DNA of 57,992 nucleotides, taken from a virus. The notes below the pieces were generated by a model that was not told the origin of the DNA, did not search any database, and saw nothing but the letters and a program-made list of their open reading frames with translations. Below, one piece after another: positions 8,885 to 42,311 of the stretch. A program made the translations under genes and the position numbers. Position 1 is the stretch's first letter; the number at the start of each line of letters is the position of its first letter. Location: IMG/VR virus record IMGVR_UViG_3300033141_003442. The stretch is one strand, 5' to 3'.

Positions 8885-9541
8885 ATGATGGAAAATAAAA
8901 AGATAATTTGTATCAGCGACCTTCACATTCCTTATACTAGCCGATATTTTATTCCTTTTGCTGGTTATGCTTGTAAAGCGGATAAGGTAATTTTTAATGG
9001 AGATATTCTGGATTTAGTGAGATGCAATACAAACGAAATTAAAAATAGCTATATTGGACAAAAGTTGATTAGTGCATTGAAAAAGATTGTAAAATCAACC
9101 CAAACAATGTTCATTGAGGGTAATCATGACCCAGAATTAGAAAAAAGTCTAACTGAATTATTAGGAATGGAAATTGCTACATTCCCTTTTTATCGTATAG
9201 GCAGGATAGGATTTGTGCATGGACATCAATTTGACCCCTTCTGCAAACATTGGAATTGGCAATTACTATCAAAGTTTGGGCCTTGGTTTTTTAATCCACC
9301 TTCTAGATGGAAACAGAAAGATAGAGAAAAATGGAAAGAGAAAATAGGAAAAATATATACAGAAGCATTTTCTTTCTTAGAAAAAGCTAGTTGGTGTAGA
9401 ATATTAGTTATTGGACATACTCATTATCCTTCTGTCCATAAATTGGAAACAGGACAAAAGCTAGCTGATTGTGGAGATTGGATAGATAGTAAGAGTTGGG
9501 TGGAAATTGAAAGAGGTAAAGTGGAAATTAAAACATTGTAA
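8885..9541 (+). CDS. Calcineurin-like metallophosphoesterase
   Basis: Motifs in order: ISDLH, GDILD, GNHD, GHQFD, GHTHYP. Confidence 0.75.
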   Translation: MMENKKIICISDLHIPYTSRYFIPFAGYACKADKVIFNGDILDLVRCNTNEIKNSYIGQKLISALKKIVKSTQTMFIEGNHDPELEKSLTELLGMEIATFPFYRIGRIGFVHGHQFDPFCKHWNWQLLSKFGPWFFNPPSRWKQKDREKWKEKIGKIYTEAFSFLEKASWCRILVIGHTHYPSVHKLETGQKLADCGDWIDSKSWVEIERGKVEIKTL

Positions 9542-9544
9542 GCT

Positions 9545-10815
9545 ACCCCTTTTTTACGGAAGGGGCTTTATCAGTGAGGAATAATCCTCCTGATTTAGGG
9601 CAGGCTTACAAACTGCCCAGCCCAAGAAGGAACTTTTGCCTTCAAGGGCAAAGATAGCAAGATTTTTGGAGGCATTGTAATCAGCATGGACTTGATAGCC
9701 ACAAGCCTTACAACAAAAAACAGAACCATTACGATTAGAAGATTGAATATGGCCACACTTACTACATCTTTGAGAACTGTATTTAGGGTCAACAAACCAA
9801 ACATCAATACCCTCTTCAAGTGCTTTGTATTGAATATAATTTGGGAGTTTAGAAAATGCCCAGAGAGAAACTTTATGTTTTTCAGCTTTTCTCCATTTTT
9901 TTACACTTCCTCTAATACTATTAAGATTTTCCATAGCAATTACTTGAGCACCAATCCTTTTTGCCTTCTCAACAATTTGCCGAGAAATATTATGCAAAAC
10001 CCAGTTAACAAAGCGGTTTTCTCGCCCACTCATTCTCTTAAGCAAGAGATGGGCAGAGCGAGTGCCTTTCTTTTGGATTTTGCTTCTCCGTTCGGCAAAC
10101 TGTCTTCTTTTATCATTAAGCATTCCTGCTTTAAAAAATTTGCCTATAGAGGTTACAGCAATATTCTTAACTCCCAAATCAACTCCCATAACAGTTTCAG
10201 GTTTTCTAACAAGAGCGGGTTTAATTATTGTAATATTAAGAAAGAAATCTTTGCCATTATAAGAAAGTGTAGCAGTCCTAAATTCATAATTTGTATTATC
10301 AAGTATTTTCTTTTGATAATCTCCAAGAAGATATTTGGCTTTTACTCTACCATTTACAGTAGAAAAAGTGCATTCTCTATTTTTAATAGTTACAGTTCTT
10401 TTATCAAGTTGAATTGCAGAAAAAGGCCTGAAGGTTGGTTTAGTTGCTTTTCTCTTTTTACTCCAATTGATAACACAAAGTTTAACCGCATCACAAGCTT
10501 TATTCCGAGCAGAACATATCAAATTAGCTTGAAGATTGGTTTGCTTTTTAAGTGGATAGTAAACAAGTTTATGGAGTTTAGATTTATTGATTATCTTCTT
10601 TTCAGGCTTCCATGCTTCATTTATGCAAAAATTAAGAGCAAAATTATATTGTCTAAAAGTTTCAAGAACATCTTGCTTTCTTTCTTGTGGAATATCCAGT
10701 TTTACTTTACAAGTCTTGATTATTTTTCTCATCGTGGTAAAATTATATCATGTTTATCTGAAATGTCAAGAAAGGAGTAAAAAGGCAATTCCTCCCCACC
10801 CTTACGGATGGGGTC
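9545..10815. mobile_element. Putative IS200/IS605-family (IS1341-like, tnpB-only) insertion bounded by similar subterminal hairpins
   Basis: Hairpin CCCCTTTTTTACGGAAGGGG at 9546-9565 and CCCCACCCTTACGGATGGGG at 10794-10813, same orientation, flanking tnpB; no tnpA present. Confidence 0.45.
9554..10732 (-). CDS. tnpB: TnpB-like RNA-guided endonuclease (IS200/IS605 OrfB family)
   Basis: 392 aa; RuvC-I (GVDLGVKNIAV), RuvC-II (IAMENLNS), zinc finger CSKCGH...CCKACG, RuvC-III (HADYNASKNLA). Confidence 0.85.
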   Translation of the reverse strand: MRKIIKTCKVKLDIPQERKQDVLETFRQYNFALNFCINEAWKPEKKIINKSKLHKLVYYPLKKQTNLQANLICSARNKACDAVKLCVINWSKKRKATKPTFRPFSAIQLDKRTVTIKNRECTFSTVNGRVKAKYLLGDYQKKILDNTNYEFRTATLSYNGKDFFLNITIIKPALVRKPETVMGVDLGVKNIAVTSIGKFFKAGMLNDKRRQFAERRSKIQKKGTRSAHLLLKRMSGRENRFVNWVLHNISRQIVEKAKRIGAQVIAMENLNSIRGSVKKWRKAEKHKVSLWAFSKLPNYIQYKALEEGIDVWFVDPKYSSQRCSKCGHIQSSNRNGSVFCCKACGYQVHADYNASKNLAIFALEGKSSFLGWAVCKPALNQEDYSSLIKPLP

Positions 10816-18857: not shown

Positions 18858-20774
18858 ATGAGAAAAAAGAAAGAAATAGATGTTATTTTAGAACGATATG
18901 AAGAAACAAAGTCTGCCTATAAGGATTTTTGGAAAAAGGCTGAAGAAAGCTACGGCTTTGTTTATGGCAACAAATATCAATGGTATGTAGATGGAAGCGA
19001 CAAATACTATAAAGATTTAAAAGATGCAGAGCGCCCTACTTTATCTATAAATAGAATACAGGCCAAATTAAATCTCCTTGATGGTTATTTTCTTACTACC
19101 AGATATGATATTAAATTCCGTCCACAACAAAAGAAAGACCAAGAAATAGTTGATATAGCTAATCAATTATATAAATTAGTTTGGTATCAAATAAAAGGCG
19201 ATGCGATTGAAGGAGAAGTTTTTTATAATGGCATAATTTCAGGAGAGCATTATTTTTATATTTATCCTGATTATTCTAAAGATATTATTCGTGGTGATGT
19301 AGGTCTTTGTGCTTGTTCTCCATGGGAGATAATGTTTGACCCACGAGCAAAACGATATGATAAAACAGATGCTGAATATGTCTTTAGGTCTGTATGGCTT
19401 CCCATAGAAACAATTAAACGAAGATGGCCTCAAAAAGCCAGACAAATAGATAAATTAGTTAAAGTTTTAACTATTATCTCTACTGAAGGATTTGAAGCTC
19501 TTAAACAAAGCGTTCATATTACACATCCTTACGATAGATGGAGAGATGCTTTATCACGGCCTTATAATATTAAAGCAAATGAAGGAAGAATAGATGAGTA
19601 TTGGTATAAAACTTGGGAAAAAGTTGAAATTATTGTTGATGCTATTACAAAAAAAGTCATTGATGAAAGTGAAATAGACAAAGAAACCTTGGAAATTAGG
19701 AAAAAAGCTGGAGATATAGAAGTTTTAACCAGATATATTCCTAAAGTAAGAGTTAAATATTTGTTTGGAGATATAGAGCTTAGTGATGAACCTTCTCCTT
19801 GGACAAAAGGAGAATTAGCAAAGAATTTCCCTTTTGTTCCTTTTACAATATATAAAATATATTTACCTACAGAAAAGAAATATTTAATCTGGGGTGCTGT
19901 AGAAGTTCTTAAAGATGTTCAAAGAGAGATAAATAAAAGGCATAGTTATCTTGTAGAGGCTATGCTTAATGCTCCTTATAGTGTTTTAATATATGAAGAC
20001 CAAACTTTTACTCCTGAAAGTGAAGAAGCTTTAAGCAAAAAAGGTTTCCGCCCAGGTATGTCTTTAAAAACTTATCCAGGGAAAATAAATAGTTATAAAA
20101 TTGAAAACACTGTGCAATTCCCTGTAGGTTTATTGGAATTAGAAAATTTAGCTCTTAAAGACGCTGATATAGTTTCTCCTATTATTCCGCCTTCTGGTAA
20201 AGTTAAATCTGGTTCTGCAATGCTTCAAGAAGAAAGAATTATGCTTACAGATAAAGCAAGAATATTTAATAATTTCAAAGATACAAAAATACTTTTAGCT
20301 AGATATTTATTTAATGCTATTCAGCAAACTTATGATTATGAGAAAACTTTTAAGGCTGTTGACAGCGATGAAGAATATACTATAAATCAAGTAGTTTTTG
20401 CTACCAAAACAGAGCCTCATCCACTTACTGGTTCTCCTGTTGAAACTGTTGTTAGAGATAAATTTGGCAGGCCTGTAATAGAAAAAATAGTAAATGATAT
20501 TACAAATGAAGCTCTTGATTTTGATATTATTGCTACTGAAGTTAATGCTTCACCAAGTTATAGATTAGCAGTAGCCAATGATTTATTAAAAATAATTCAG
20601 ACAACGCCAAATCCGATTTTTATTAAAATGTTGTTTGAATATCTAGATTTACCTTCCCATATTAAAAAAGAATTAGAGCAACAAATGAATGCTCAAACGC
20701 AGCAAGCATTACAACAACAAAATTTGCCACAAAATATAAGACAGTTACAAACCCCATTCAAGCAAGGAGGATAA
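18858..20774 (+). CDS. Probable portal protein
   Basis: 638 aa, size and position next to terL; general resemblance to portal proteins; not verified by search. Confidence 0.5.
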   Translation: MRKKKEIDVILERYEETKSAYKDFWKKAEESYGFVYGNKYQWYVDGSDKYYKDLKDAERPTLSINRIQAKLNLLDGYFLTTRYDIKFRPQQKKDQEIVDIANQLYKLVWYQIKGDAIEGEVFYNGIISGEHYFYIYPDYSKDIIRGDVGLCACSPWEIMFDPRAKRYDKTDAEYVFRSVWLPIETIKRRWPQKARQIDKLVKVLTIISTEGFEALKQSVHITHPYDRWRDALSRPYNIKANEGRIDEYWYKTWEKVEIIVDAITKKVIDESEIDKETLEIRKKAGDIEVLTRYIPKVRVKYLFGDIELSDEPSPWTKGELAKNFPFVPFTIYKIYLPTEKKYLIWGAVEVLKDVQREINKRHSYLVEAMLNAPYSVLIYEDQTFTPESEEALSKKGFRPGMSLKTYPGKINSYKIENTVQFPVGLLELENLALKDADIVSPIIPPSGKVKSGSAMLQEERIMLTDKARIFNNFKDTKILLARYLFNAIQQTYDYEKTFKAVDSDEEYTINQVVFATKTEPHPLTGSPVETVVRDKFGRPVIEKIVNDITNEALDFDIIATEVNASPSYRLAVANDLLKIIQTTPNPIFIKMLFEYLDLPSHIKKELEQQMNAQTQQALQQQNLPQNIRQLQTPFKQGG

Positions 20775-22337: not shown

Positions 22338-22565
22338 TTAATATTCTACTTCTTCTTTTTCCATCCAAATTCTAAATTTCCAACCACATTCGCTACAATT
22401 GAAGTTAATTGCATTGTCAGAAATATTTTTTTTATTTGGGCAAGAAAATATTATTTTAAGTTCTTCTCCTTCTGGCCAATGCCCAAATGTATATATTTTA
22501 CCACAATTTGGACACTGCCAAATAAGTTTACAAAGTTTTTCTTTCATTTTTTTCTCCTTATTCAA
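22338..22565 (-). CDS. Small Zn-ribbon protein
   Basis: CxxC pairs (CPNCGK, CSECG). Confidence 0.5.
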   Translation of the reverse strand: MNKEKKMKEKLCKLIWQCPNCGKIYTFGHWPEGEELKIIFSCPNKKNISDNAINFNCSECGWKFRIWMEKEEVEY

Positions 22566-23094
22566 TATTTAACAAATATCTTTTAATCCCATTATTAATT
22601 AAAAATGCTGCTTTTATTTGGGCATCGGAAGAATGTAATGGGAGAAGGGGATTATCTATAAAACCTACTTCAATTAAAACAGCAGGCATTTTGGTTTTCC
22701 TTAATACATAAAAATTTCCTTCTTTAATTCCTCTGAACTTGCCTGGGACAATCTCATCAATAAATGTAGCAATATTATCTGCTAGTTTAGCACTTTTAAT
22801 TGAACCAGGATAAATCCAGATTTCCTCTCCCTTAGCATTATGTTTAGGAGAAGCATTAACATGAATACTAACAAAGGCATCTGCTTTTACACTATTTGCA
22901 ATAAAAACCCTATCTCGCAATGGCACATATATATCAGCCGTTCTGGTATAAATACAGTTTACCATATTGGATAAAAAACCACCCAAATATAATGCAATAG
23001 GCAAAACTATATCTTTTTCTTTGTATCCTGCATAAACAGCCCCTGGGTCTTTACCTCCATGCCCTGGGTCAATTACTATGGTGTATTTTTTCAT
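22558..23094 (-). CDS. N-acetylmuramoyl-L-alanine amidase (Amidase_3-type endolysin)
   Basis: N-terminal IVIDPGHGGKDPGA and downstream Zn-ligand pattern typical of Amidase_3 / CwlV-like enzymes. Confidence 0.8.
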   Translation of the reverse strand: MKKYTIVIDPGHGGKDPGAVYAGYKEKDIVLPIALYLGGFLSNMVNCIYTRTADIYVPLRDRVFIANSVKADAFVSIHVNASPKHNAKGEEIWIYPGSIKSAKLADNIATFIDEIVPGKFRGIKEGNFYVLRKTKMPAVLIEVGFIDNPLLPLHSSDAQIKAAFLINNGIKRYLLNIE

Positions 23095-32044: not shown

Positions 32045-32073
32045 ATGATAAAACAAGTAATTTATTTTGTCAA
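32045..32073 (-). promoter_or_regulatory. Sigma70-like promoter TTGACA-N17-TATCAT (minus strand)
   Basis: Plus-strand tgtcaa 32068-32073 and atgata 32045-32050, 17-nt spacer; part of a 35-bp element also present at 39935-39965. Confidence 0.45.
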
Positions 32074-32607
32074 GGGTCTAATTTTTTTAAGTATAATTTT
32101 TTTCCCTTCCTGTGTTGTCCTGATGCCTGTGATAAAGTAATTAACCTTTCTTAACTGTTTCCACCATTTCGTTGCTATTTCACTGTCTGCCATGGTTATT
32201 GAATGAACCTTATTGCTGTCATAGGCACTTATCACTCGCAATAGTGCATTATATTCCATATCATTAGGGTTAGGTAGTTTGCAATTTTTTACTTTAAATC
32301 TATTATAAGGGTTTGGCTGAGGTTCTTCTGGATGTTTGTGGTGATATTTAATTCTAATTTTATTTATGACTTGTTGTGAGGATAATATACCTTTTTTTAA
32401 CTTATCATATAAAAACAAACAGAAAGCTGCAAAACAATTTTTCTTGGCTCTAAGCTTGCAAAGGTTTTCCACTGCCTCAATGAATTGCAGGTCTGTATAA
32501 TCATCACTAATAGTAATCAACCTTATCATTTCTTTCTCATGAACCACTACATCATTTTTTTTGGCAATATCCTTAAAAATTTCAAGCCTGCTGTCTGAGT
32601 TAGTCAT
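32062..32607 (-). CDS. Hypothetical protein (181 aa)
   Basis: ORF with SD GGAGG. Confidence 0.5.
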   Translation of the reverse strand: MTNSDSRLEIFKDIAKKNDVVVHEKEMIRLITISDDYTDLQFIEAVENLCKLRAKKNCFAAFCLFLYDKLKKGILSSQQVINKIRIKYHHKHPEEPQPNPYNRFKVKNCKLPNPNDMEYNALLRVISAYDSNKVHSITMADSEIATKWWKQLRKVNYFITGIRTTQEGKKIILKKIRPLTK

Positions 32608-34045: not shown

Positions 34046-35173
34046 CTATATATCCTTTAAAATGCCTGAAATGACAGGTTTAATATAGCTATCGTATAAA
34101 CCGTCTCTTTCTTCTTCAGTAGTCGTCCAGACTTTTTCAGGTTTGGGATATTGAACGCCTGGCTTATCCTCCCACCGCCGTTGAGCAAGGAATGTGCTGG
34201 GATATATAATATATTCTAGTTCCATATTAGGCCATTCATACTTTATGTAATTATCTAAGCCTTCCATTATTTGGTTAAATAAAGCTTCATCAGGATTTAT
34301 TTTTAACCACTCTGCTAAAGCTCCTACTTTGTTTACTTTTCTGGGATAGTTTAGCCAAAACTTCTCAAATAGAATTCGTTGCTTTTTAATATTTTGTAGT
34401 AGTAAATTATCTGGTGGTTTATAGGGCGGAAAAGGTTGTTGTTTTTCTTTTCCACTGATGAATTCACTTTTCTTATTTGAATCTTTAGAGCTATATAGAT
34501 TATTATTTATATATTTTTTATTATTTTCTTTAAAAGAGTTATTTAAAGAAGATTTTATATCTGTAGTATTCTTTGTAGTATTCTTTGTATTTGTCCTAAC
34601 TTCAGGAGAAGGAGGTGGTAACTTTGAAGTAGGGGGGTGGTTACTTTGAAGTAAAGAGGTATTTACTTCGGAATTAGGAGGTGGTGATTCTGAAGTAGGA
34701 AGGTGGTTATCTTGAGGTAAAGAGGGGGTTTTTTTAGATTTGCGTTGGTCGTATGTAATTTTAAGGACATTGTCAATAATTGGTTCTATAAACATGACAT
34801 TTGAAAGTTTTAAACCTTCGTTAGTTTCTATTGTTTTAAATTCTCTTTTAACAAGTTTTAATCTTATCAAATCATCAAAAGCTCTTTTAACCTGTATTTT
34901 TGTGAAACCAAATAAATCCACATAAGACTGGTAATTCTTTTGTAATCTATCAGCTTTAAACTTTTGTCTATAACCAATTACTTCGCCTGTTTCTGGATTT
35001 CTTTCTTCAACTGGCCTATACCAAAAAACAATGTCCGCCAATAATGTTATAGCTACATGATTCACTGTTCCGTTTTGAGTTTTTATATATCTATACCAAC
35101 TTAAGGGGACAGTATTACCAGAAAATTCAACGCCAATTAGTTTTTTACATTGTTCATTTATTTCATTTCTCAT
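34046..35173 (-). CDS. Putative replication initiator / replisome organiser (DnaD-like C-terminal region) with internal low-complexity linker
   Basis: 375 aa; N- and C-terminal globular parts separated by a P/S/T-rich linker encoded by iteron-like DNA repeats; C-terminal F..FW..YP...A.WLK pattern. Confidence 0.45.
   Translation of the reverse strand: MRNEINEQCKKLIGVEFSGNTVPLSWYRYIKTQNGTVNHVAITLLADIVFWYRPVEERNPETGEVIGYRQKFKADRLQKNYQSYVDLFGFTKIQVKRAFDDLIRLKLVKREFKTIETNEGLKLSNVMFIEPIIDNVLKITYDQRKSKKTPSLPQDNHLPTSESPPPNSEVNTSLLQSNHPPTSKLPPPSPEVRTNTKNTTKNTTDIKSSLNNSFKENNKKYINNNLYSSKDSNKKSEFISGKEKQQPFPPYKPPDNLLLQNIKKQRILFEKFWLNYPRKVNKVGALAEWLKINPDEALFNQIMEGLDNYIKYEWPNMELEYIIYPSTFLAQRRWEDKPGVQYPKPEKVWTTTEEERDGLYDSYIKPVISGILKDI
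34611..34722. repeat. Five imperfect roughly 22-bp direct repeats (iteron-like) inside the replication gene; adjacent 12-bp tandem repeat at 34564-34587
   Basis: ggaggtggtaactttgaagtagg / ggggtggttactttgaagtaaag / aggtatttacttcggaattagg / aggtggtgattctgaagtagg / aaggtggttatcttgaggtaaag. Confidence 0.6.
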
Positions 35174-35243
35174 TTAACTCCTCCTGAAATATATTATGGA
35201 ATTTTTTATGGCAATTATCACATAGCACTATTAAATCTTCTTT

Positions 35244-35777
35244 TCATGTTAAATATTCTCTTCCTCTATTTTCATAGGTTTTATGGTGAACATTTAAATT
35301 TTGGTTTGAACCACATAATGAGCAAGTAGGGTTTTTCCATTTGACATATCTAGATACAACTCGCCAATAAAGGGTCTGGAGAAAATCTTTATAATTCATA
35401 CTAGATAGGATTTCTATATCCTCTTTAGTTATTAAATCAAATAATAAATAAAAATCACAAGCTGGAGTATTTTTGCCTGTCCCAAAATTTGCTAGTTTTC
35501 TCTGTTGTCTTTCTTTTTCTCTTTTCTGGCGTTCTAATTCGGCTTTTTCTTCTCTTTCTTTGCGTTTTTCGTATCGTATTCTTTTACATTCAGGGCAAAT
35601 TGCATTTTTGAAATCCCATTTATTATTTACAATTATAGTTTTCCCACAAATTGAACAAGCGATTTTATATTGTCTTAGTTTTAAAAATTCTCTTACTTTA
35701 TTAAAAACTTCTGTTTGATTTACTTCAATAGGCACTAATAAACAGGCTTCTTTTAATGCCTCTTCCCATTTCTCCAT
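35244..35777 (-). CDS. Zn-ribbon protein with C-terminal HNH-like motif
   Basis: CSICGK...CPECK and C-terminal CSLCGSNQNLNVHHK; coiled-coil K/E/R-rich middle. Confidence 0.4.
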   Translation of the reverse strand: MEKWEEALKEACLLVPIEVNQTEVFNKVREFLKLRQYKIACSICGKTIIVNNKWDFKNAICPECKRIRYEKRKEREEKAELERQKREKERQQRKLANFGTGKNTPACDFYLLFDLITKEDIEILSSMNYKDFLQTLYWRVVSRYVKWKNPTCSLCGSNQNLNVHHKTYENRGREYLT

Positions 35778-35828
35778 TTTAATTCCCTAAAAATAAAAAA
35801 CCCACACAGACAGAACAAGACTTTTTTG

Positions 35829-35894
35829 ACATGGTGAAAGGCCAAGGTGTCTTGCTTGTCCGTGCGGGCTTGGTTTCAAAATGCCTTTCACCAT
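35829..35894. promoter_or_regulatory. 12-bp perfect inverted repeat (ATGGTGAAAGGC ... GCCTTTCACCAT) with 40-nt GC-rich spacer, just downstream of a candidate minus-strand promoter
   Basis: Arms at 35831-35842 and 35883-35894; candidate promoter TTGACA-N17-TAAGAA at 35904-35932 (minus); related GC-rich motifs CCGTGCGGGC / CCCGTGCAGGC. Confidence 0.45.
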
Positions 35895-36012
35895 ATTGAT
35901 TTATTCTTACCAGATTATTTTTAACTTGTCAATATCAAAAATGCCTACACAAGCAAACAGGTGAGAAAGGGAGGAGAAAAGGTGGGACCTGTCTGCCCGT
36001 GCAGGCTGTGAT

Positions 36013-37260
36013 TTAAAATAATTCTTCTAATTCTTTTGCTTTGGTGTCAATCATCAAGTAGATTTCTGTAGCTTCCGCCTCATCCGAAATATCATAAATA
36101 CTATTATAACCCTTTTCTTTCAAAACCTCATTCACTAGTTCACGGTCATAATTTGACAATTGCTCTTCTAATTCCACAAGCCATTGTGCGGGAGGTTGAG
36201 CTTTCTTTTCTGGTTTAGCCTTTTTAGGTTTTGGAGGAGAAGTAGCAGGCTTATTCTTTGCTTCCCATTCCTTAAATTTTTCTACAAACCTATCTATTTT
36301 CTTTGTAGCTTTTTCTTTTACATATTCCATCGAGCAATTAACACTCTTTGCTACTGTTTCAATGTATTCTTCTACTCTTTCTTTATCTAATTTTTTTTTA
36401 GCAATCACATCATCAAAAAATATTATTCGTTCAGGTTCAGGAGCTTGGTCTTCAATTTGTTTGGGTTTGTCGTCCTTTTTTTCTTTTCCAGCCTCCATAT
36501 CCTTTATATCAATCACTTTACCTTGGAAAGTTACTTCTTCCTTTTTAGGTTCTTCTTCAATTGTAGACAATACAATGTCCTCTTCTTCCTCAGAAATTGC
36601 TATATCTAATTCAGGTGTTTTGCGTTTCATTTTAAGCATTTTCAAAACTGCACTCTTTCTCATCATAGCTTCAGGCCATAAATGCCAAGGACTATCTTTA
36701 GTTCCAGCTTGTTCAGCCTTTCTCCATGAAAGAGACATTTTTCTTCTTTTTTCAATTTCTTCCATTCTGATTATATCGAAATCCACTCTATCATCCTTTT
36801 TCCAAAGAGCGTAAGCACAAACAGCTTTCCCTCTGTCTTTTAATGCAATTTTATGGTGCAAATAAGCATCAGTGCCCAATTGATAATTAAACTCATCATT
36901 CTCATAAACTACATGGGCTTCCACTTCAGCATCTGTTACTCTGTTTACCAACTCAATAAGACCTTGATAACCAATTTGGGCATTGCATTCTATTGGATGT
37001 CCTTGTTTTCTATTATTACGCCTAGGTATCAAATAAACATTATCTCCGCCTGGTAGTAATCCCCACTCTGCACATTTCAATAATGCACTGAGCAAACTTT
37101 CAGGAGTGCATTGTTGCAATTGAGGGTTTTTGAAAAGAGCGTTCCAAAAGGCTGCAATCAGGACATCTTTCTTCATTCCTTTAGGTAGCACTTTTAACTT
37201 CTCACTTGTTTCAGGAGAAACTAATTTGGCCTTGATTTCTGCTAGTTGATTTTTTTTCAT
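36013..37260 (-). CDS. recT: RecT-family single-strand annealing recombinase
   Basis: N-terminal region (TPESLLSALLKCAEWGLLPGGDNVYLIPRRN) fits the RecT family; acidic/basic C-terminal tail. Confidence 0.65.
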   Translation of the reverse strand: MKKNQLAEIKAKLVSPETSEKLKVLPKGMKKDVLIAAFWNALFKNPQLQQCTPESLLSALLKCAEWGLLPGGDNVYLIPRRNNRKQGHPIECNAQIGYQGLIELVNRVTDAEVEAHVVYENDEFNYQLGTDAYLHHKIALKDRGKAVCAYALWKKDDRVDFDIIRMEEIEKRRKMSLSWRKAEQAGTKDSPWHLWPEAMMRKSAVLKMLKMKRKTPELDIAISEEEEDIVLSTIEEEPKKEEVTFQGKVIDIKDMEAGKEKKDDKPKQIEDQAPEPERIIFFDDVIAKKKLDKERVEEYIETVAKSVNCSMEYVKEKATKKIDRFVEKFKEWEAKNKPATSPPKPKKAKPEKKAQPPAQWLVELEEQLSNYDRELVNEVLKEKGYNSIYDISDEAEATEIYLMIDTKAKELEELF

Positions 37261-37263
37261 TGC

Positions 37264-37458
37264 CTATCCTCCTACATTTATTATTTTAAAAACTAAATCT
37301 ATTGCTACGACAATACAAGAAAAAAGGATAATAGAAAATAATACCATACCAAGAAAGAAAAAAGGTGGACTTAGTTCTTCAAATTTTGTTTCTATTTTAA
37401 GCCCAATATTATTAAGCAAGATAAAAAATATAACTACAAAATAACAAAATGTTTTCAT
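37264..37458 (-). CDS. Small membrane protein (two TM segments)
   Basis: Two hydrophobic segments in 64 aa. Confidence 0.4.
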   Translation of the reverse strand: MKTFCYFVVIFFILLNNIGLKIETKFEELSPPFFFLGMVLFSIILFSCIVVAIDLVFKIINVGG

Positions 37459-39934: not shown

Positions 39935-39963
39935 ATTATAAAACAGTTAAATTATTTTGTCAA
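39935..39963 (-). promoter_or_regulatory. Consensus sigma70 promoter TTGACA-N17-TATAAT (minus strand)
   Basis: Plus-strand tgtcaa 39958-39963 and attata 39935-39940 with exact 17-nt spacer. Confidence 0.6.
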
Positions 39964-39996
39964 GGGTAAATTTAAATTAAATCCCCAAAAACTATC

Positions 39997-41789: not shown

Positions 41790-42311
41790 TTATAAATAAA
41801 ATTCTTTTCCCAAAACATACTGCAATGCTTCAGCAATATGGGTTGTCTTGATATTATCTTCTTTGTCTATTTCGCTAATAGTTTTAGCAACTCTTAAAGT
41901 TGTCTCTAATTCAGAAGGAAGCATCCCTTTGGTTTTATATGCAGTTTCCAGAAGATTTAACCCTTCTTTATCTATTTTGCTTTTATCAAATTCAAGATAC
42001 TCAAAGTTAAAGCAGTTAATTGCTGTAAAAGTCATATCCGTTTGAGGAAGATTTATTTGATACTTTTTAATTTCTTCTGGCGTGCATTTACATATTCTAT
42101 TTGTGGAATTGAAGTTACCGCAAGGGCAAGGTTTTTTGACATAAATGATTTCTTCCAAAAGGTATCTTTGTTCTTCAGGAATGGTCTTTTTTAATCCGAA
42201 TACTACTTGTTGAATGAAATATACATCACTCGTAATAATCAATAATGAATGTTTGCCATTTAAAGCAACATCTAAAACTCTTAAAAAATGTGGTGAATTA
42301 AATTTAATCAT
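41790..42311 (-). CDS. ComM/YifB (Mg-chelatase-like AAA+) C-terminal-domain-like protein; tentative
   Basis: CPCGNFNSTNRICKCT Zn-binding-like motif and C-terminal helix TTHIAEALQYVLG. Confidence 0.35.
   Translation of the reverse strand: MIKFNSPHFLRVLDVALNGKHSLLIITSDVYFIQQVVFGLKKTIPEEQRYLLEEIIYVKKPCPCGNFNSTNRICKCTPEEIKKYQINLPQTDMTFTAINCFNFEYLEFDKSKIDKEGLNLLETAYKTKGMLPSELETTLRVAKTISEIDKEDNIKTTHIAEALQYVLGKEFYL

What the first reader, a model, noticed from the sequence alone, without database searches (positions are those of the whole stretch)
35778..36012. GC-rich structured intergenic element downstream of recT with a 12-bp perfect inverted repeat
This 235-bp intergenic region in the minus-strand block contains ATGGTGAAAGGC (35831-35842) and its exact reverse complement (35883-35894) separated by 40 nt that include a small internal hairpin (caaggtgtcttg) and the GC-rich motif CCGTGCGGGC. 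A related motif, CCCGTGCAGGC, lies at 35991-36010. A candidate minus-strand promoter (35904-35932) sits just upstream, so the repeat would be an operator at the transcription start or a 5' stem-loop of the transcript. Given the adjacent replication genes, a replication or recombination site is also possible.
Basis: seen in the sequence. Interest (0 to 1): 0.5.

Follow-up and report, generated by a model that had tools for sequence, protein, structure and literature searches.

The report
Two-state phage leader RNA with terminator
The 12-bp inverted repeat is the 5' stem of a conserved ~105-nt phage RNA with its own promoter, and it competes with a very strong terminator hairpin just upstream of the phage's DNA-replication genes, so it most likely acts as an RNA gate on replication-gene transcription.

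Summary
The perfect 12-bp inverted repeat, its inner hairpin, the related GC-rich motifs and a minus-strand promoter are all present. The element is RNA on the minus strand: the fold z-score is -6.8, against -0.5 on the plus strand. About 25 related phage contigs from environmental metagenomes each carry one copy, always as promoter, then RNA, then U-tract, then ribosome-binding site. Across 10 haplotypes the repeat (helix P1) changed on both sides at 7 of its 12 pairs and stayed 94% paired. Its 5' arm lies inside the P1 loop. Partial transcripts fold into P1 plus the inner hairpin (P2). Full-length RNA folds into T. I read this as a promoter-proximal attenuator that also yields a small RNA and gates the replication module. 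The second GC-rich motif belongs to a paralogous hairpin (A) that follows recT. What flips the switch is not known. P1 varies at least as much as recT third-codon positions and falls into poorly cross-pairing types. That pattern hints at RNA self-recognition like phage P4 immunity. An invariant AUG near the predicted start, with an open frame, is an alternative. Rfam has no match. I rate it a new variant of a known kind.

The parts
35943..36006 (-). Hairpin A, a paralog of hairpin T. It starts 6 nt after the recT stop codon. 5' arm 36006..35987, 24-nt pyrimidine loop 35986..35963 (CCCACCUUUUCUCCUCCCUUUCUC), 3' arm 35962..35943, then AUUUUUGAUAUU. Probably the recT 3' terminator or stabiliser hairpin.
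   Evidence: I2; 20 pairs in the minimum-free-energy fold. It follows recT in every relative examined. 99.6% of cells are paired, and 8 pairs vary on one side only, through G.U. The model built on element B hits it at 39 bits.
35904..35932 (-). Promoter of element B: -35 TTGACA 35932..35927, 17-nt spacer with a conserved AAATAAT, extended -10 TGG-TAAGAA (TG 35912..35911, hexamer 35909..35904). Predicted start at about 35898-35894.
   Evidence: consensus scan. Conservation among relatives begins exactly at the -35 element, whatever lies upstream. Core identity is 0.95 in the set of relatives found through RecT. The start site itself is inferred, not shown.
35883..35894 (-). P1 5' arm (AUGGUGAAAGGC). 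It begins with an invariant AUG.
35869..35882 (-). Linker L1 (AUUUUGAAACCAAG), 14-22 nt in relatives.
35849..35868 (-). T 5' arm (CCCGCACGGACAAGCAAGAC), inside the P1 loop. Its last part, CAAG (35854..35851), is also the 5' strand of the inner hairpin P2.
35843..35854 (-). It stacks on P1 and ties up the top of the T 5' arm in the P1 conformer.
   Evidence: folds of partial transcripts. (RNAalifold: CG, AU, AU, GU/GC kept in 14 of 14).
35831..35842 (-). P1 3' arm (GCCUUUCACCAU). In the T conformer it sits in the apical loop above a UUGGC/GUCAA stem.
35822..35830 (-). L3, GUCAAAAAA. GUCAAA is kept in all relatives. The A-run is 5-8 long and is interrupted only in L142.
35801..35821 (-). T 3' arm (GUCUUGUUCUGUCUGUGUGGG), G/U-rich and nearly invariant.
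35789..35800 (-). U-tract (UUUUUUAUUUUU) directly after hairpin T. Predicted 3' end of the short RNA.
   Evidence: It is a terminator by anatomy only. The scan cannot score it because it allows loops of at most 8 nt.
35775..35788 (-). Ribosome-binding site (AGGGA) and ATG (35777) of the first gated gene. Here that gene is a 177-aa protein with a weak HNH-like match, and the replication initiator follows at 34046-35173.
   Evidence: The first downstream gene differs among relatives.
35787..35894 (-). Possible leaderless mini-ORF (35 codons here) that starts at the invariant AUG and runs through hairpin T. Its status is unresolved.
   Evidence: Frame 0 is open in 17 of 17 sequences, but the peptide and the reading frame are not conserved.

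Best explanation
Element B (35932..35789, minus strand) is a self-contained transcription unit and a cis-acting attenuator. It sits between the recombination genes (exonuclease, recT) and the replication module. P1 and the stacked 4-bp hairpin P2 can form as soon as about 70 nt have been made. They enclose the 5' arm of a 20-21-bp G.U-rich hairpin T, and P2 pairs with its top. T is followed by a U-tract and, 0-10 nt later, by the ribosome-binding site of the next gene. If T forms, transcription stops and a roughly 105-nt small RNA is released. If P1 and P2 hold, the polymerase reads on into the replication genes, and P1 remains as a 5'-terminal stem on the long mRNA. Whatever occupies the P1 5' arm during the roughly 50-nt interval before its partner is made would therefore cause termination. 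Shown here: the sequence anatomy, strand specificity, conservation as a unit, covariation of P1, conservation of T, and the predicted order of folding. Inferred: the transcription start, termination at T, that P1/P2 and T really exclude each other in the cell, and the trigger. My preferred trigger, held with low confidence, is RNA-RNA self-recognition through the hypervariable P1 arms.
For: Strand-specific structure: minus strand -83.9 kcal/mol, z = -6.8, with 0 of 200 shuffles as stable; plus strand z = -0.5. About 17% of T cells and 21% of hairpin A cells are G.U pairs, which would be A.C mismatches on the other strand (my tally).

One copy per genome. The covariance model R1 gives 73-130 bits in every relative. 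That includes 15 distinct loci found through RecT alone, so their retrieval did not depend on the element. There are no hits in more distant RecT or replication-protein relatives.

Conservation starts at the -35 element and ends at the ribosome-binding site. The flanking genes differ, with at least 8 different first downstream genes.

P1: 10 haplotypes, 94.2% of cells paired, 7 of 12 pairs changed on both sides. No shuffle in 500 reaches the covariation score, and registers slid by 1-3 columns pair at 34-61%. Stepwise paths are visible, for example A-U, then G.U, then G-C at positions 4 and 7.

T: 98.5% paired against 32-58% when slid. All one-sided changes are A-U to G.U. L142 carries a compensatory top pair, GAU/AUC.

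Folding order: transcripts cut before the T 3' arm fold into P1 (-19 to -27 kcal/mol at 37 C, still -6 to -12 at 65-75 C apart from the weaker L063 hybrid). Full-length RNA folds into T (-38 to -53 kcal/mol). In a model without pseudoknots, refolding from P1 to T must cross 23-32 kcal/mol at 37 C and 13-17 at 65-75 C, less in the L063 hybrid.

P2 competes directly: CAAG pairs either with CUUG in L2 or with GUCUUG in the T 3' arm.

Context: RecT (PF03837), exonucleases and YopX lie upstream. A replication initiator (phrog_270) with internal 22-bp iteron-like repeats lies downstream.
Against: There are no transcript data, so the promoter, the start site and termination at T are all inferred. The -10 hexamer TAAGAA is weak. 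P1 and T are interleaved (a, b, a', b'), so they could coexist as an H-type pseudoknot. The loops (L1 14-22 nt, L3 8-11 nt and A-rich) look long enough for that, and in that case there is no switch. The folding tools used cannot model pseudoknots. No effector was identified, and no recognisable antiterminator or RNA-binding protein was found in the window. T shows almost no double compensatory change, so its support is conservation plus G.U-tolerant variation. All homologs come from one narrow phage clade. Many of them were retrieved with a pattern taken from the T 3' arm, which inflates that arm's apparent conservation. The RecT-anchored subset corrects for this.
Confidence: 0.6

Rival explanations
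1. RNA immunity or copy control of the P4 CI / P1 c4 type. This is a specific version of the trigger. The terminated ~105-nt RNA displays the P1 3' arm in the apical loop of T. It pairs in trans with the P1 5' arm of nascent leaders, blocks P1, and so forces termination ahead of the replication genes. The P1 sequence types would then be specificity (hetero-immunity or incompatibility) classes.
For: The variable part of P1 shows only 0.58-0.63 identity. That is below recT third-codon positions (0.70), although pairing must be kept, while the promoter (0.95) and the T arms (0.87-0.90) are conserved. There are at least 9 arm types. Four were tested for cross-pairing: cognate duplexes give -19 to -21 kcal/mol and non-cognate ones -7.5 to -14, with the G.U intermediate Ia' bridging Ia and Ib. 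Different types occur in the same metagenomes. In the T conformer the 3' arm lies in a 10-nt loop closed by an invariant UUGGC/GUCAA stem. In P4, replication genes are silenced by premature termination driven by an RNA made from the same leader (PMC4825925).
Against: There is no match to Rfam C4, IsrK or any other family. No third complementary site, like P4's seqC, lies in the fetched flanks. Pairing within one molecule should outcompete pairing in trans unless the RNA is processed or very abundant. Natural hybrids with mismatched arms exist (L063, L052). The identity figures come from ungapped comparison, which exaggerates divergence between types that differ by a 1-nt shift. No integrase or repressor was recognised, so lysogeny is unproven.
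Confidence: 0.2
2. Leader-peptide attenuation of the pyrBI type, from a leaderless mini-ORF. Ribosomes load on the AUG at or near the 5' end. P1 hides that AUG. A ribosome following the polymerase through the T 5' arm prevents the terminator from forming.
For: AUG is invariant at the first three P1 positions in all sequences. This holds even in L142, where its pairing partner CAU is lost. It lies 7-9 nt after the -10 element and has no Shine-Dalgarno sequence. Frame 0 is open for 35 to more than 45 codons in 17 of 17 sequences. There are 40 stop triplets in the other two frames, roughly 10 of them independent sites, which by my arithmetic gives (2/3)^10, about 0.02 (L142 by inspection). The frame runs through T, as the leader ORF does in pyrBI (my own knowledge).
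Against: The T 5' arm has no U and the T 3' arm has no A, so no frame there can contain a stop. The same nucleotides are read in different frames in types I and II. The A-run polymorphism (5-8 A) shifts the frame between close relatives, so the peptide is not conserved. The position of the stop relative to the next gene varies. AUG could be conserved for start-site or helix-end reasons instead.
Confidence: 0.15
3. No switch. P1 and T form together as a compact pseudoknotted RNA. The unit is then a constitutive small-RNA gene and/or a strong terminator, with P1 protecting the 5' end. Readthrough would depend on an unidentified protein antiterminator.
For: The arrangement a, b, a', b' is the topology of an H-type pseudoknot. 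By rough geometry (my estimate), L1 (14-22 nt) and the A-rich L3 (8-11 nt) are long enough to span helices of 20 and 12 bp. GUCAAA followed by an A-run, placed where it could lie in the P1 minor groove, is conserved in all relatives. P1 starts at or within a few nucleotides of the predicted 5' end, as 5'-stabilising stems do. One paralog of T (hairpin A) exists with no P1 at all.
Against: Essential replication genes lie directly behind T with no room for another promoter, because the ribosome-binding site follows the U-tract by 0-10 nt. Readthrough must therefore be provided somehow. P2 and the UUGGC/GUCAA stem overlap with T and P1 respectively, which points to alternative rather than simultaneous pairing. 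No antiterminator was recognised.
Confidence: 0.2
4. A DNA-level site: the inverted repeat is an operator for a phage repressor at the transcription start, or part of an origin or recombination site.
For: Operator half-sites that co-evolve with a repressor would also change in concert. The 5' arm covers about +1 to +12. The element lies next to recombination and replication genes.
Against: The arms are not palindromic in themselves and lie 52 bp apart centre to centre. Single-sided changes are G.U-compatible on the transcribed strand (Ia', L139, position 12 of IIb). The hairpins are strongly strand-asymmetric. A U-tract and ribosome-binding site follow. Iteron-like 22-bp repeats inside the initiator gene are a better origin candidate. 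Hairpin A and element B are separated by whole genes in many relatives.
Confidence: 0.05
5. Counter-transcript control, as in plasmids pT181 and pIP501. A plus-strand promoter inside the leader makes an antisense RNA that decides between the two folds.
For: The conserved CAUGUCAAAAA reads TTTTTGACATG on the plus strand, which is a perfect -35. Sixteen nt further on lies GATAAT in type IIb and L036, and TATCTT in L062 and L044 (my reading).
Against: The -10 is poor or absent in other types (TGTCTT in the window, GATAGC in IIa). The predicted antisense RNA would cover most of the T 5' arm, which would block the terminator rather than induce it. No plus-strand terminator is conserved.
Confidence: 0.07
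6. A riboswitch: P1 closes a small ligand-binding core and T is the expression platform.
For: A variable but always paired closing stem around a more conserved core, followed by a terminator that uses core nucleotides, is classic riboswitch layout.
Against: The 40-nt core consists mostly of the terminator arm itself. The remaining linkers differ between types I and II. No junction or internal helix other than P2 is conserved. There is no Rfam match even at E = 10.
Confidence: 0.04

Closest known systems
Phage P4 CI RNA (and P1/P7 c4, N15 CA RNA): immunity by RNA-driven premature termination
   Same: A short RNA comes from the leader of the very operon it controls. The leader contains sequences complementary to that RNA. 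The outcome is termination ahead of replication or antirepressor genes. Related phages differ in the complementary sequences. (P4 as summarised in PMC4825925; the rest is my own knowledge.)
   Different: There is no sequence or structure match to the Rfam C4 family. Only one complementary pair was found, not seqA plus seqC. Here the complementarity forms a helix within one molecule that competes with an intrinsic terminator. No processing signal is evident. Action in trans is not shown.
Gifsy-1 IsrK (one promoter gives a short RNA and a readthrough mRNA)
   Same: A promoter-proximal Rho-independent terminator splits transcripts into a small RNA and a long mRNA. Alternative helices in the leader decide downstream expression (PMC4825925).
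   Different: IsrK acts on translation of a downstream ORF. There is no Rfam IsrK match. The genes controlled are different.
Terminator/antiterminator attenuators (pT181/pIP501 rep leaders, trp and pyrBI leaders, riboswitch expression platforms)
   Same: An early-forming helix competes with an intrinsic terminator placed directly in front of the regulated genes. In the plasmid cases the regulated gene is also a replication initiator. (My own knowledge.)
   Different: The competing helices here are interleaved (a, b, a', b') rather than consecutive (1:2, 2:3, 3:4). Exclusion is therefore largely topological, plus the 4-bp P2. No conserved antisense promoter, regulatory codons or ligand pocket was found.
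Lambda pR-nutR-tR1 in front of cII-O-P
   Same: A terminator guards entry into the replication genes of a phage early operon, and the origin iterons lie inside the initiator gene (my own knowledge; iteron-like repeats here).
   Different: Lambda uses the N protein and a small boxB hairpin. No N-like protein or nut-like site was recognised here, and this element has its own promoter.
5'-terminal stabilising stem-loops and phage T7 intergenic RNase III hairpins
   Same: P1 starts at or within a few nucleotides of the predicted 5' end. Hairpins A and T share sequence with each other, as T7 processing sites do, and A sits between genes with only a weak U-tract. (My own knowledge.)
   Different: There are only two such hairpins in 58 kb. 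Their 24-27-nt loops are unlike T7 sites. Nothing about processing was tested.

Membership tests
Intrinsic (Rho-independent) terminator (hairpin T) | Stable G+C-containing stem directly followed by a U-tract on the transcribed strand | tested here: met
   20-21 pairs, 98.5% kept in 18 distinct sequences, followed by runs of 4-8 U within a 12-nt U-rich tract. The loop is atypically large and structured (27 nt), so the simple scan does not list it.
Intrinsic (Rho-independent) terminator (hairpin T) | Transcripts end in the U-tract | not testable with these tools
   Needs Term-seq or in vitro transcription.
Transcription attenuator (antiterminator versus terminator) | An upstream helix that forms first and cannot coexist with the terminator | tested here: inconclusive
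   P1/P2 form in partial transcripts and T forms in full-length RNA. The barrier in a nested model is 23-32 kcal/mol at 37 C. P2 shares CAAG with T. P1 and T are interleaved, so coexistence as a pseudoknot cannot be excluded with the tools used.
Transcription attenuator (antiterminator versus terminator) | Both alternative helices conserved in evolution | tested here: met
   P1: 7 of 12 pairs changed on both sides, 94% paired. T: 98.5% paired. P2 kept in 14 of 14.
Transcription attenuator (antiterminator versus terminator) | A signal (ribosome, RNA, protein or ligand) that shifts the balance | not testable with these tools
   Candidates only. See the rival explanations.
C4 / P4 CI antisense RNA family (Rfam C4) and IsrK | Match to the family covariance model | tested here: not met
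   No hit at gathering threshold in the window. No hit at E up to 10 in 35700-36100. No hit at E up to 0.1 in five related loci.
C4 / P4 CI antisense RNA family (Rfam C4) and IsrK | RNA segment complementary to sites in the leader of the operon it controls | tested here: met
   The P1 3' arm complements the P1 5' arm in every type. This also forms a helix within one molecule, and no further site was found.
C4 / P4 CI antisense RNA family (Rfam C4) and IsrK | Action in trans, and processing of the precursor | not testable with these tools
   Needs genetics or biochemistry.
Riboswitch | Conserved ligand-binding core closed by P1, and membership of a described class | tested here: not met
   No Rfam class matches. 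The core is mainly the terminator arm, and the linkers differ between types.
Leader-peptide attenuator / leaderless small ORF | Start codon with a translation-initiation signal, and an open frame conserved across relatives | tested here: inconclusive
   The AUG is invariant, lies 7-9 nt after the -10 element and has no Shine-Dalgarno sequence. Frame 0 is open in 17 of 17 with 0 stops, against 40 in the other frames. Base composition explains part of this, and the frame and peptide are not conserved.
Repressor operator | Dyad-symmetric site of the size and spacing bound by a dimer, overlapping the promoter | tested here: not met
   The 12-bp arms are not palindromic and lie 52 bp apart centre to centre, downstream of the -10 element. 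One-sided changes are G.U-type.
Replication origin | Iterons and an AT-rich region recognised by the initiator | tested here: not met
   Six 22-bp tandem repeats lie inside the initiator gene at 34599-34725 instead. Only two copies of the hairpin motif occur per genome, and they are separable.

The most novel reading that the evidence does not exclude
The hypervariable P1 arms are address labels of an RNA-only self-recognition system. The short terminated RNA of each phage type binds nascent leaders of its own type and forces termination ahead of the replication genes. That would give copy-number control or superinfection immunity with at least nine largely non-cross-pairing specificities in a clade of thermophile-associated phages. 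Mechanistically it would parallel P4 immunity, but it would have arisen independently and would be built on an interleaved (pseudoknot-topology) terminator switch.
Probability: 0.2. Interest if true: 0.75.

Novelty: new variant of a known kind. Interest (0 to 1): 0.55.

Why it matters
This is an undescribed structured RNA with no Rfam match. It has clear covariation and a defined transcription-unit anatomy, and it sits at the entry to the replication module of uncultivated phages linked by CRISPR spacers to thermophilic bacteria. If the two folds really alternate, it is a compact, portable, protein-independent gate on transcription. The interleaved helix arrangement is unusual for an attenuator. 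If the P1 types are specificity classes, it would be a second, independent case of RNA-based phage immunity or copy control, and a natural set of orthogonal RNA switches that work at high temperature. If instead it is a static pseudoknot, it is an ordinary small RNA and terminator cassette and of modest interest.

Tried and rejected
- **tRNA or tmRNA:** none in the window.
- **Known RNA families:** none matched at gathering threshold or at permissive E-values, in the window or in five related loci.
- **Cultured phages:** blastn of 35200-37300 against 50,697 phage records found nothing.
- **Reference genomes:** an element-derived pattern gave no hit in 185,579 species genomes.
- **Third copy of the P1 arm as a trans target:** none consistent across relatives. 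The 1-mismatch sites inside recT (window) and just upstream of recT (L003) are not shared by other relatives.
- **Other copies of the promoter or hairpin motif in the window:** only hairpin A.
- **Conserved protein from the small ORF:** rejected, because homologous nucleotides are read in different frames and the A-run length shifts the frame.
- **Plus-strand 9-codon ORF inside hairpin A behind GGGAGGAG:** rejected by reading the relatives, because the stop is not conserved (L003) and the similarity follows from the hairpin.
- **Pairing of the hairpin A loop with the P1 5' arm or with the next ribosome-binding site:** only 5-7 bp of generic purine-pyrimidine complementarity with no covariation, so I did not pursue it.
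- **Same architecture upstream of distant replication-initiator homologs (L131, L132):** absent.
- **Promoter-anchored scan for divergent copies:** returned only the known set plus two unrelated loci.
- **Recognisable antiterminator or RNA-binding proteins in the early block:** none found.
Full report
**1. The observation.** ATGGTGAAAGGC lies at 35831-35842 and its perfect reverse complement at 35883-35894, 40 nt apart. The small hairpin caag-gtgt-cttg lies inside. CCGTGCGGGC has a relative at 35996-36006 (family D2). A minus-strand promoter match starts at TTGACA 35932. By my arithmetic a perfect 12-bp inverted repeat this close together is expected about 8e-4 times in 235 random bases. The region lies between the recT-like gene (36013-37260, PF03837) and a 177-aa ORF (35244-35777). 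Both are on the minus strand.

**2. It is RNA, on the minus strand.** Folded as the minus-strand transcript, the 235 nt reach -83.9 kcal/mol (z = -6.8, with 0 of 200 shuffles as stable). The plus strand is unremarkable (z = -0.5). The difference comes from many G.U pairs.

Two long hairpins dominate the fold:
- **Hairpin A (36006..35943)** starts 6 nt after the recT stop codon. It has 20 pairs and a 24-nt pyrimidine-rich loop.
- **Hairpin T** pairs CCCGCACGGACAAGCAAGAC (35868..35849) with GUCUUGUUCUGUCUGUGUGGG (35821..35801). UUUUUUAUUUUU follows, and 11 nt later comes the ATG at 35777.

Both hairpins rank among the five most stable 110-nt folds of the 58-kb window. No tRNA, tmRNA or Rfam family matches, even at permissive thresholds.

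**3. Relatives.** No cultured phage resembles the locus. RecT-based and pattern-based scans of viral and metagenome collections gave about 25 related contigs. A RecT protein search followed by contig look-ups added loci that were chosen without reference to the element.

A covariance model of the element (R1, from alignment A1) finds exactly one full copy per relative at 73-130 bits. It also finds hairpin A as a weak paralog at 28-42 bits, and nothing in more distant RecT or replication-protein relatives.

Sequence conservation begins exactly at the -35 hexamer and ends at the ribosome-binding site. Upstream lies either hairpin A or the end of various small genes. Downstream there are at least eight different first genes, including the replication initiator itself. 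The element is thus a portable cassette: promoter (TTGACAA, 5 variable nt, then AAATAATyTGGTAAGAA), RNA, U-tract.

**4. Helix P1 covaries strongly.** Ten arm haplotypes were found:

| Type | 5' arm / 3' arm | Note |
|---|---|---|
| Ia | AUGGUGAAAGGC / GCCUUUCACCAU | the window |
| Ia' | differs from Ia by a G.U pair | |
| Ib | GGUGGAAAGC / GCUUUCCACC | |
| Ic | GGCGGAAAGC / GCUUUCCGCC | |
| IIa | AUGAGCGGAGG / CCUCCGCUCAU | |
| L139 | IIa with G.U at position 4 | intermediate |
| IIb | AUGAUGGAGGG / CCCUCCAUCAU | |
| IIc | AUGGGUGGAGG / CCUCCGCCCAU | |
| IId | AUGGAUGGAGG / CCUCCAUCCAU | |
| Hybrids | L063 and L052 | two natural recombinants |

I aligned the arms alone, joined by a constant AAAA linker that I added, because MAFFT put type IIa one column out of register. 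On that alignment 94.2% of cells pair and 7 of 12 pairs changed on both sides (21 cells). No shuffle in 500 reaches the covariation score. Registers slid by 1-3 columns pair at only 34-61% (an earlier version is). RNAalifold on an ordinary MAFFT alignment of the P1 domain recovers those parts of P1 that the register shift does not disturb. It also recovers the inner 4-bp hairpin P2, CAAG/CUUG.

**5. Hairpin T is conserved rather than covarying.** 98.5% of cells pair, against 32-58% when slid. Eleven of the 19 main-stem pairs never vary. Six vary on one side only, almost all by A-U to G.U or G.U to G-C changes. The most divergent copy, L142, has a compensatory top pair. Hairpin A behaves the same way: 99.6% paired, with 8 pairs varying on one side only.

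A caveat applies here. Many copies were retrieved with a pattern taken from the T 3' arm. I therefore repeated the comparison on 16 RecT-anchored sequences:

| Segment | Mean pairwise identity |
|---|---|
| Promoter core | 0.95 |
| T 3' arm | 0.90 |
| T 5' arm | 0.87 |
| recT, all positions | 0.83 |
| recT, third codon positions | 0.70 |
| P1 arms | 0.68-0.69 |
| P1 arms without the invariant AUG/CAU | 0.58-0.63 |

. The arm figures come from ungapped comparison and are somewhat underestimated. Even so, P1 is the fastest-changing part of a cassette that is otherwise strongly conserved.

**6. Two folds.** Transcripts cut just before the T 3' arm fold into P1 plus P2 in every relative. The energies are -19 to -27 kcal/mol at 37 C and still -6 to -12 at 65-75 C, apart from the weaker L063 hybrid. 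Full-length RNAs fold into T at -38 to -53 kcal/mol. In T, the P1 3' arm sits in a 10-nt apical loop above an invariant UUGGC/GUCAA stem.

Every T pair crosses every P1 pair. In a model without pseudoknots, refolding therefore has to cross 23-32 kcal/mol at 37 C, or 13-17 at 65-75 C, less in the L063 hybrid. P2 competes directly for the CAAG that nucleates T.

This is the logic of an antiterminator and a terminator, but with interleaved helices. The same topology would also allow an H-type pseudoknot. The loop lengths and the conserved A-rich L3 (GUCAAA followed by an A-run, 5-8 A's in all) are compatible with one. I could not model this, and it is the main uncertainty.

**7. Context and likely role.** Upstream on the same strand lie two exonuclease-like genes, YopX and RecT. 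Downstream lie a 177-aa protein with a weak HNH-like match and a replication initiator (phrog_270). The initiator gene contains six 22-bp tandem repeats, resembling the iterons inside lambda gene O. No room exists for another promoter between T and the next ribosome-binding site. Transcription of the replication module therefore has to pass T.

I conclude that element B is a promoter-proximal attenuator that gates the replication module. Its terminated product is a roughly 105-nt small RNA. On readthrough transcripts P1 is a 5'-terminal stem. Hairpin A is a paralog that marks the end of the recT transcript, or stabilises it. In relatives where no copy of element B follows directly, a conserved ribosome-binding site follows it instead.

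**8. What flips it?** Three leads, none decisive.
- **(a) RNA self-recognition.** P1 diverges at least as much as recT third-codon positions although it must stay paired. The types tested pair poorly with each other: cognate -19 to -21 kcal/mol against -7.5 to -14 for non-cognate. Different types occur in the same metagenomes. In the T fold one arm is presented in a loop and the other in a free 5' tail. This recalls phage P4, where an RNA processed from the leader pairs with complementary leader sequences and causes premature termination ahead of the replication genes. It also recalls IsrK of Gifsy-1, where one promoter gives a short RNA and a readthrough mRNA (PMC4825925). Against this, there is no family match, no additional target site was found, and pairing within one molecule should compete.
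- **(b) Translation.** The first three P1 nucleotides are always AUG, even in L142 where they are unpaired. They lie 7-9 nt after the -10 element with no Shine-Dalgarno sequence. The frame from this AUG is open through T in all 17 sequences tested, with 40 stop triplets in the other two frames. But the T arms cannot contain stops, because one lacks U and the other lacks A. The frame used differs between types, and the A-run length shifts it. Only the act of translation could matter, not the peptide.
- **(c) A plus-strand promoter.** TTGACA, formed by the conserved GUCAA, is followed by GATAAT in some types. This could give an antisense RNA, but the -10 element is not conserved.

**9. Rejected readings.** An operator or origin is unlikely, for four reasons:
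- The arms are not palindromic and lie 52 bp apart centre to centre.
- One-sided changes are of the G.U type on the transcribed strand.
- A better origin candidate lies inside the initiator gene.
- Hairpin A and element B are separable.

A riboswitch is unlikely because the 'core' is mostly the terminator arm and the linkers are not conserved.

**10. Host and source.** Two metagenome hits are CRISPR arrays whose spacers match the L3 and T 3' arm segment of the element. Their repeat occurs in Thermodesulfobacterium, Caldimicrobium, Thermodesulfovibrio and similar genomes. An array binned to a 'Deltaproteobacteria' genome from a hydrothermal site carries a 34-nt spacer that is 97% identical to window 34164-34197. 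NCBI names the identical RecT as coming from a 'Candidatus Heimdallarchaeaceae archaeon' genome bin, and the longest contig on record is 57,992 bp, the length of this window. The window nevertheless has perfect sigma-70 promoters, Shine-Dalgarno sites, an N-acetylmuramoyl-L-alanine amidase (PF01520, 3.6e-47) and a P22-like portal. It is therefore almost certainly a bacteriophage that was binned by mistake. A thermophilic host would explain the unusually long helices.

**11. Verdict.** The element is a new, well-supported structured RNA cassette whose general logic (leader, terminator, small RNA) is known. I rate it a new variant of a known kind. The unusual features are the interleaved design and the hypervariable P1. 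Interest is moderate. It would be high if the P1 types prove to be RNA specificity classes.

Noticed in passing
L051 and L061 (metagenome contigs Ga0190360_1022299 and Ga0190361_1013031); protospacer in window 35795-35826: Two CRISPR arrays (repeat GTATTATCTGAACCATGTGGGATATAAAG) carry a spacer against the L3, T 3' arm and U-tract segment of element B. L051 may hold a second spacer against window 41905-41940 (89% identity).
   Followed up: partly
L097 (MAG AUK045, labelled Deltaproteobacteria) versus window 34164-34197; repeat hits L066-L122: A 34-nt spacer 97% identical to the replication-initiator gene links this phage to a host with this CRISPR repeat. The same repeat occurs in Thermodesulfobacterium, Caldimicrobium, Thermodesulfovibrio and other thermophile genomes.
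   Followed up: partly
whole window (57992 bp); RecT 36013-37260: NCBI names the identical RecT 'MAG: recombinase RecT [Candidatus Heimdallarchaeaceae archaeon]', on a contig of the same length as the window. The contig has sigma-70 promoters, a peptidoglycan amidase (22558-23094, PF01520) and a P22-like portal (18858-20774). It looks like a bacteriophage wrongly binned into an Asgard archaeal genome. A homolog is binned as 'Ca. Cloacimonas'.
   Followed up: partly
window 9554-10732 (-) and 9538-9650: A TnpB gene (PF07282 Cas12f1-like TNB domain, 4e-22; PF01385 OrfB_IS605) sits among the plus-strand structural genes. The most stable local fold of the whole window (-49 and -44 kcal/mol on the two strands) abuts its 3' end. 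It could be the guide (omega) RNA scaffold or a bidirectional terminator.
   Followed up: no
window 34599-34725: Six tandem 22-bp repeats (ACTTTGAAGTAGGGGGGTGGTT-like) lie inside the replication-initiator gene. They are probable origin iterons, as in lambda gene O.
   Followed up: partly
window 39966..39935 and 32076..32045 (minus strand): Two nearly identical, near-perfect promoters: CCCTTGACAAAATAATTTAACTGTTTTATAAT and CCCTTGACAAAATAAATTACTTGTTTTATCAT. They form a different class from the promoter of element B and suggest several timed transcription units in the 23-kb minus-strand block.
   Followed up: no
L063 and L052 (metagenome contigs): These are natural recombinant elements whose two P1 arms come from different types. 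L063 has a IIb 5' arm and a IIa 3' arm (P1 weakened to -18.7 kcal/mol). L052 has a IId-like 5' arm and a IIb 3' arm, with a bulge. Recombination evidently occurs inside the element.
   Followed up: partly
window 35822-35830 and homologous positions in relatives: The A-run in L3 varies from 5 to 8 A between otherwise near-identical copies. This looks like slippage-prone length polymorphism in a conserved motif.
   Followed up: no
window 35963-35986 (loop of hairpin A) and relatives: The 24-nt loop CCACCUUUCCUCCUCCCUUUCU is nearly invariant. It resembles the pyrimidine-rich 3' tail of 16S rRNA (the anti-Shine-Dalgarno sequence). It could pair with the GGAGGA ribosome-binding site that follows hairpin A by about 12 nt in relatives lacking an adjacent element B. 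I did not test this.
   Followed up: no
L064 7128-7200 (-): A tRNA gene (Rfam RF00005, 48 bits) lies in a related 75.8-kb contig, about 3.3 kb from its copy of the element.
   Followed up: no
L133 75-115 (IMGVR_UViG_3300005613_000359): An unrelated G+C-rich phage contig carries the same promoter pattern (TTGACAATGTGGAAATAATATGGTAAGAAT). An ATG follows 6 nt after TAAGAA, with no Shine-Dalgarno sequence, and opens an ORF that reads like a small terminase subunit. This may be an example of a leaderless gene behind this promoter type, or it may be a chance match.
   Followed up: no
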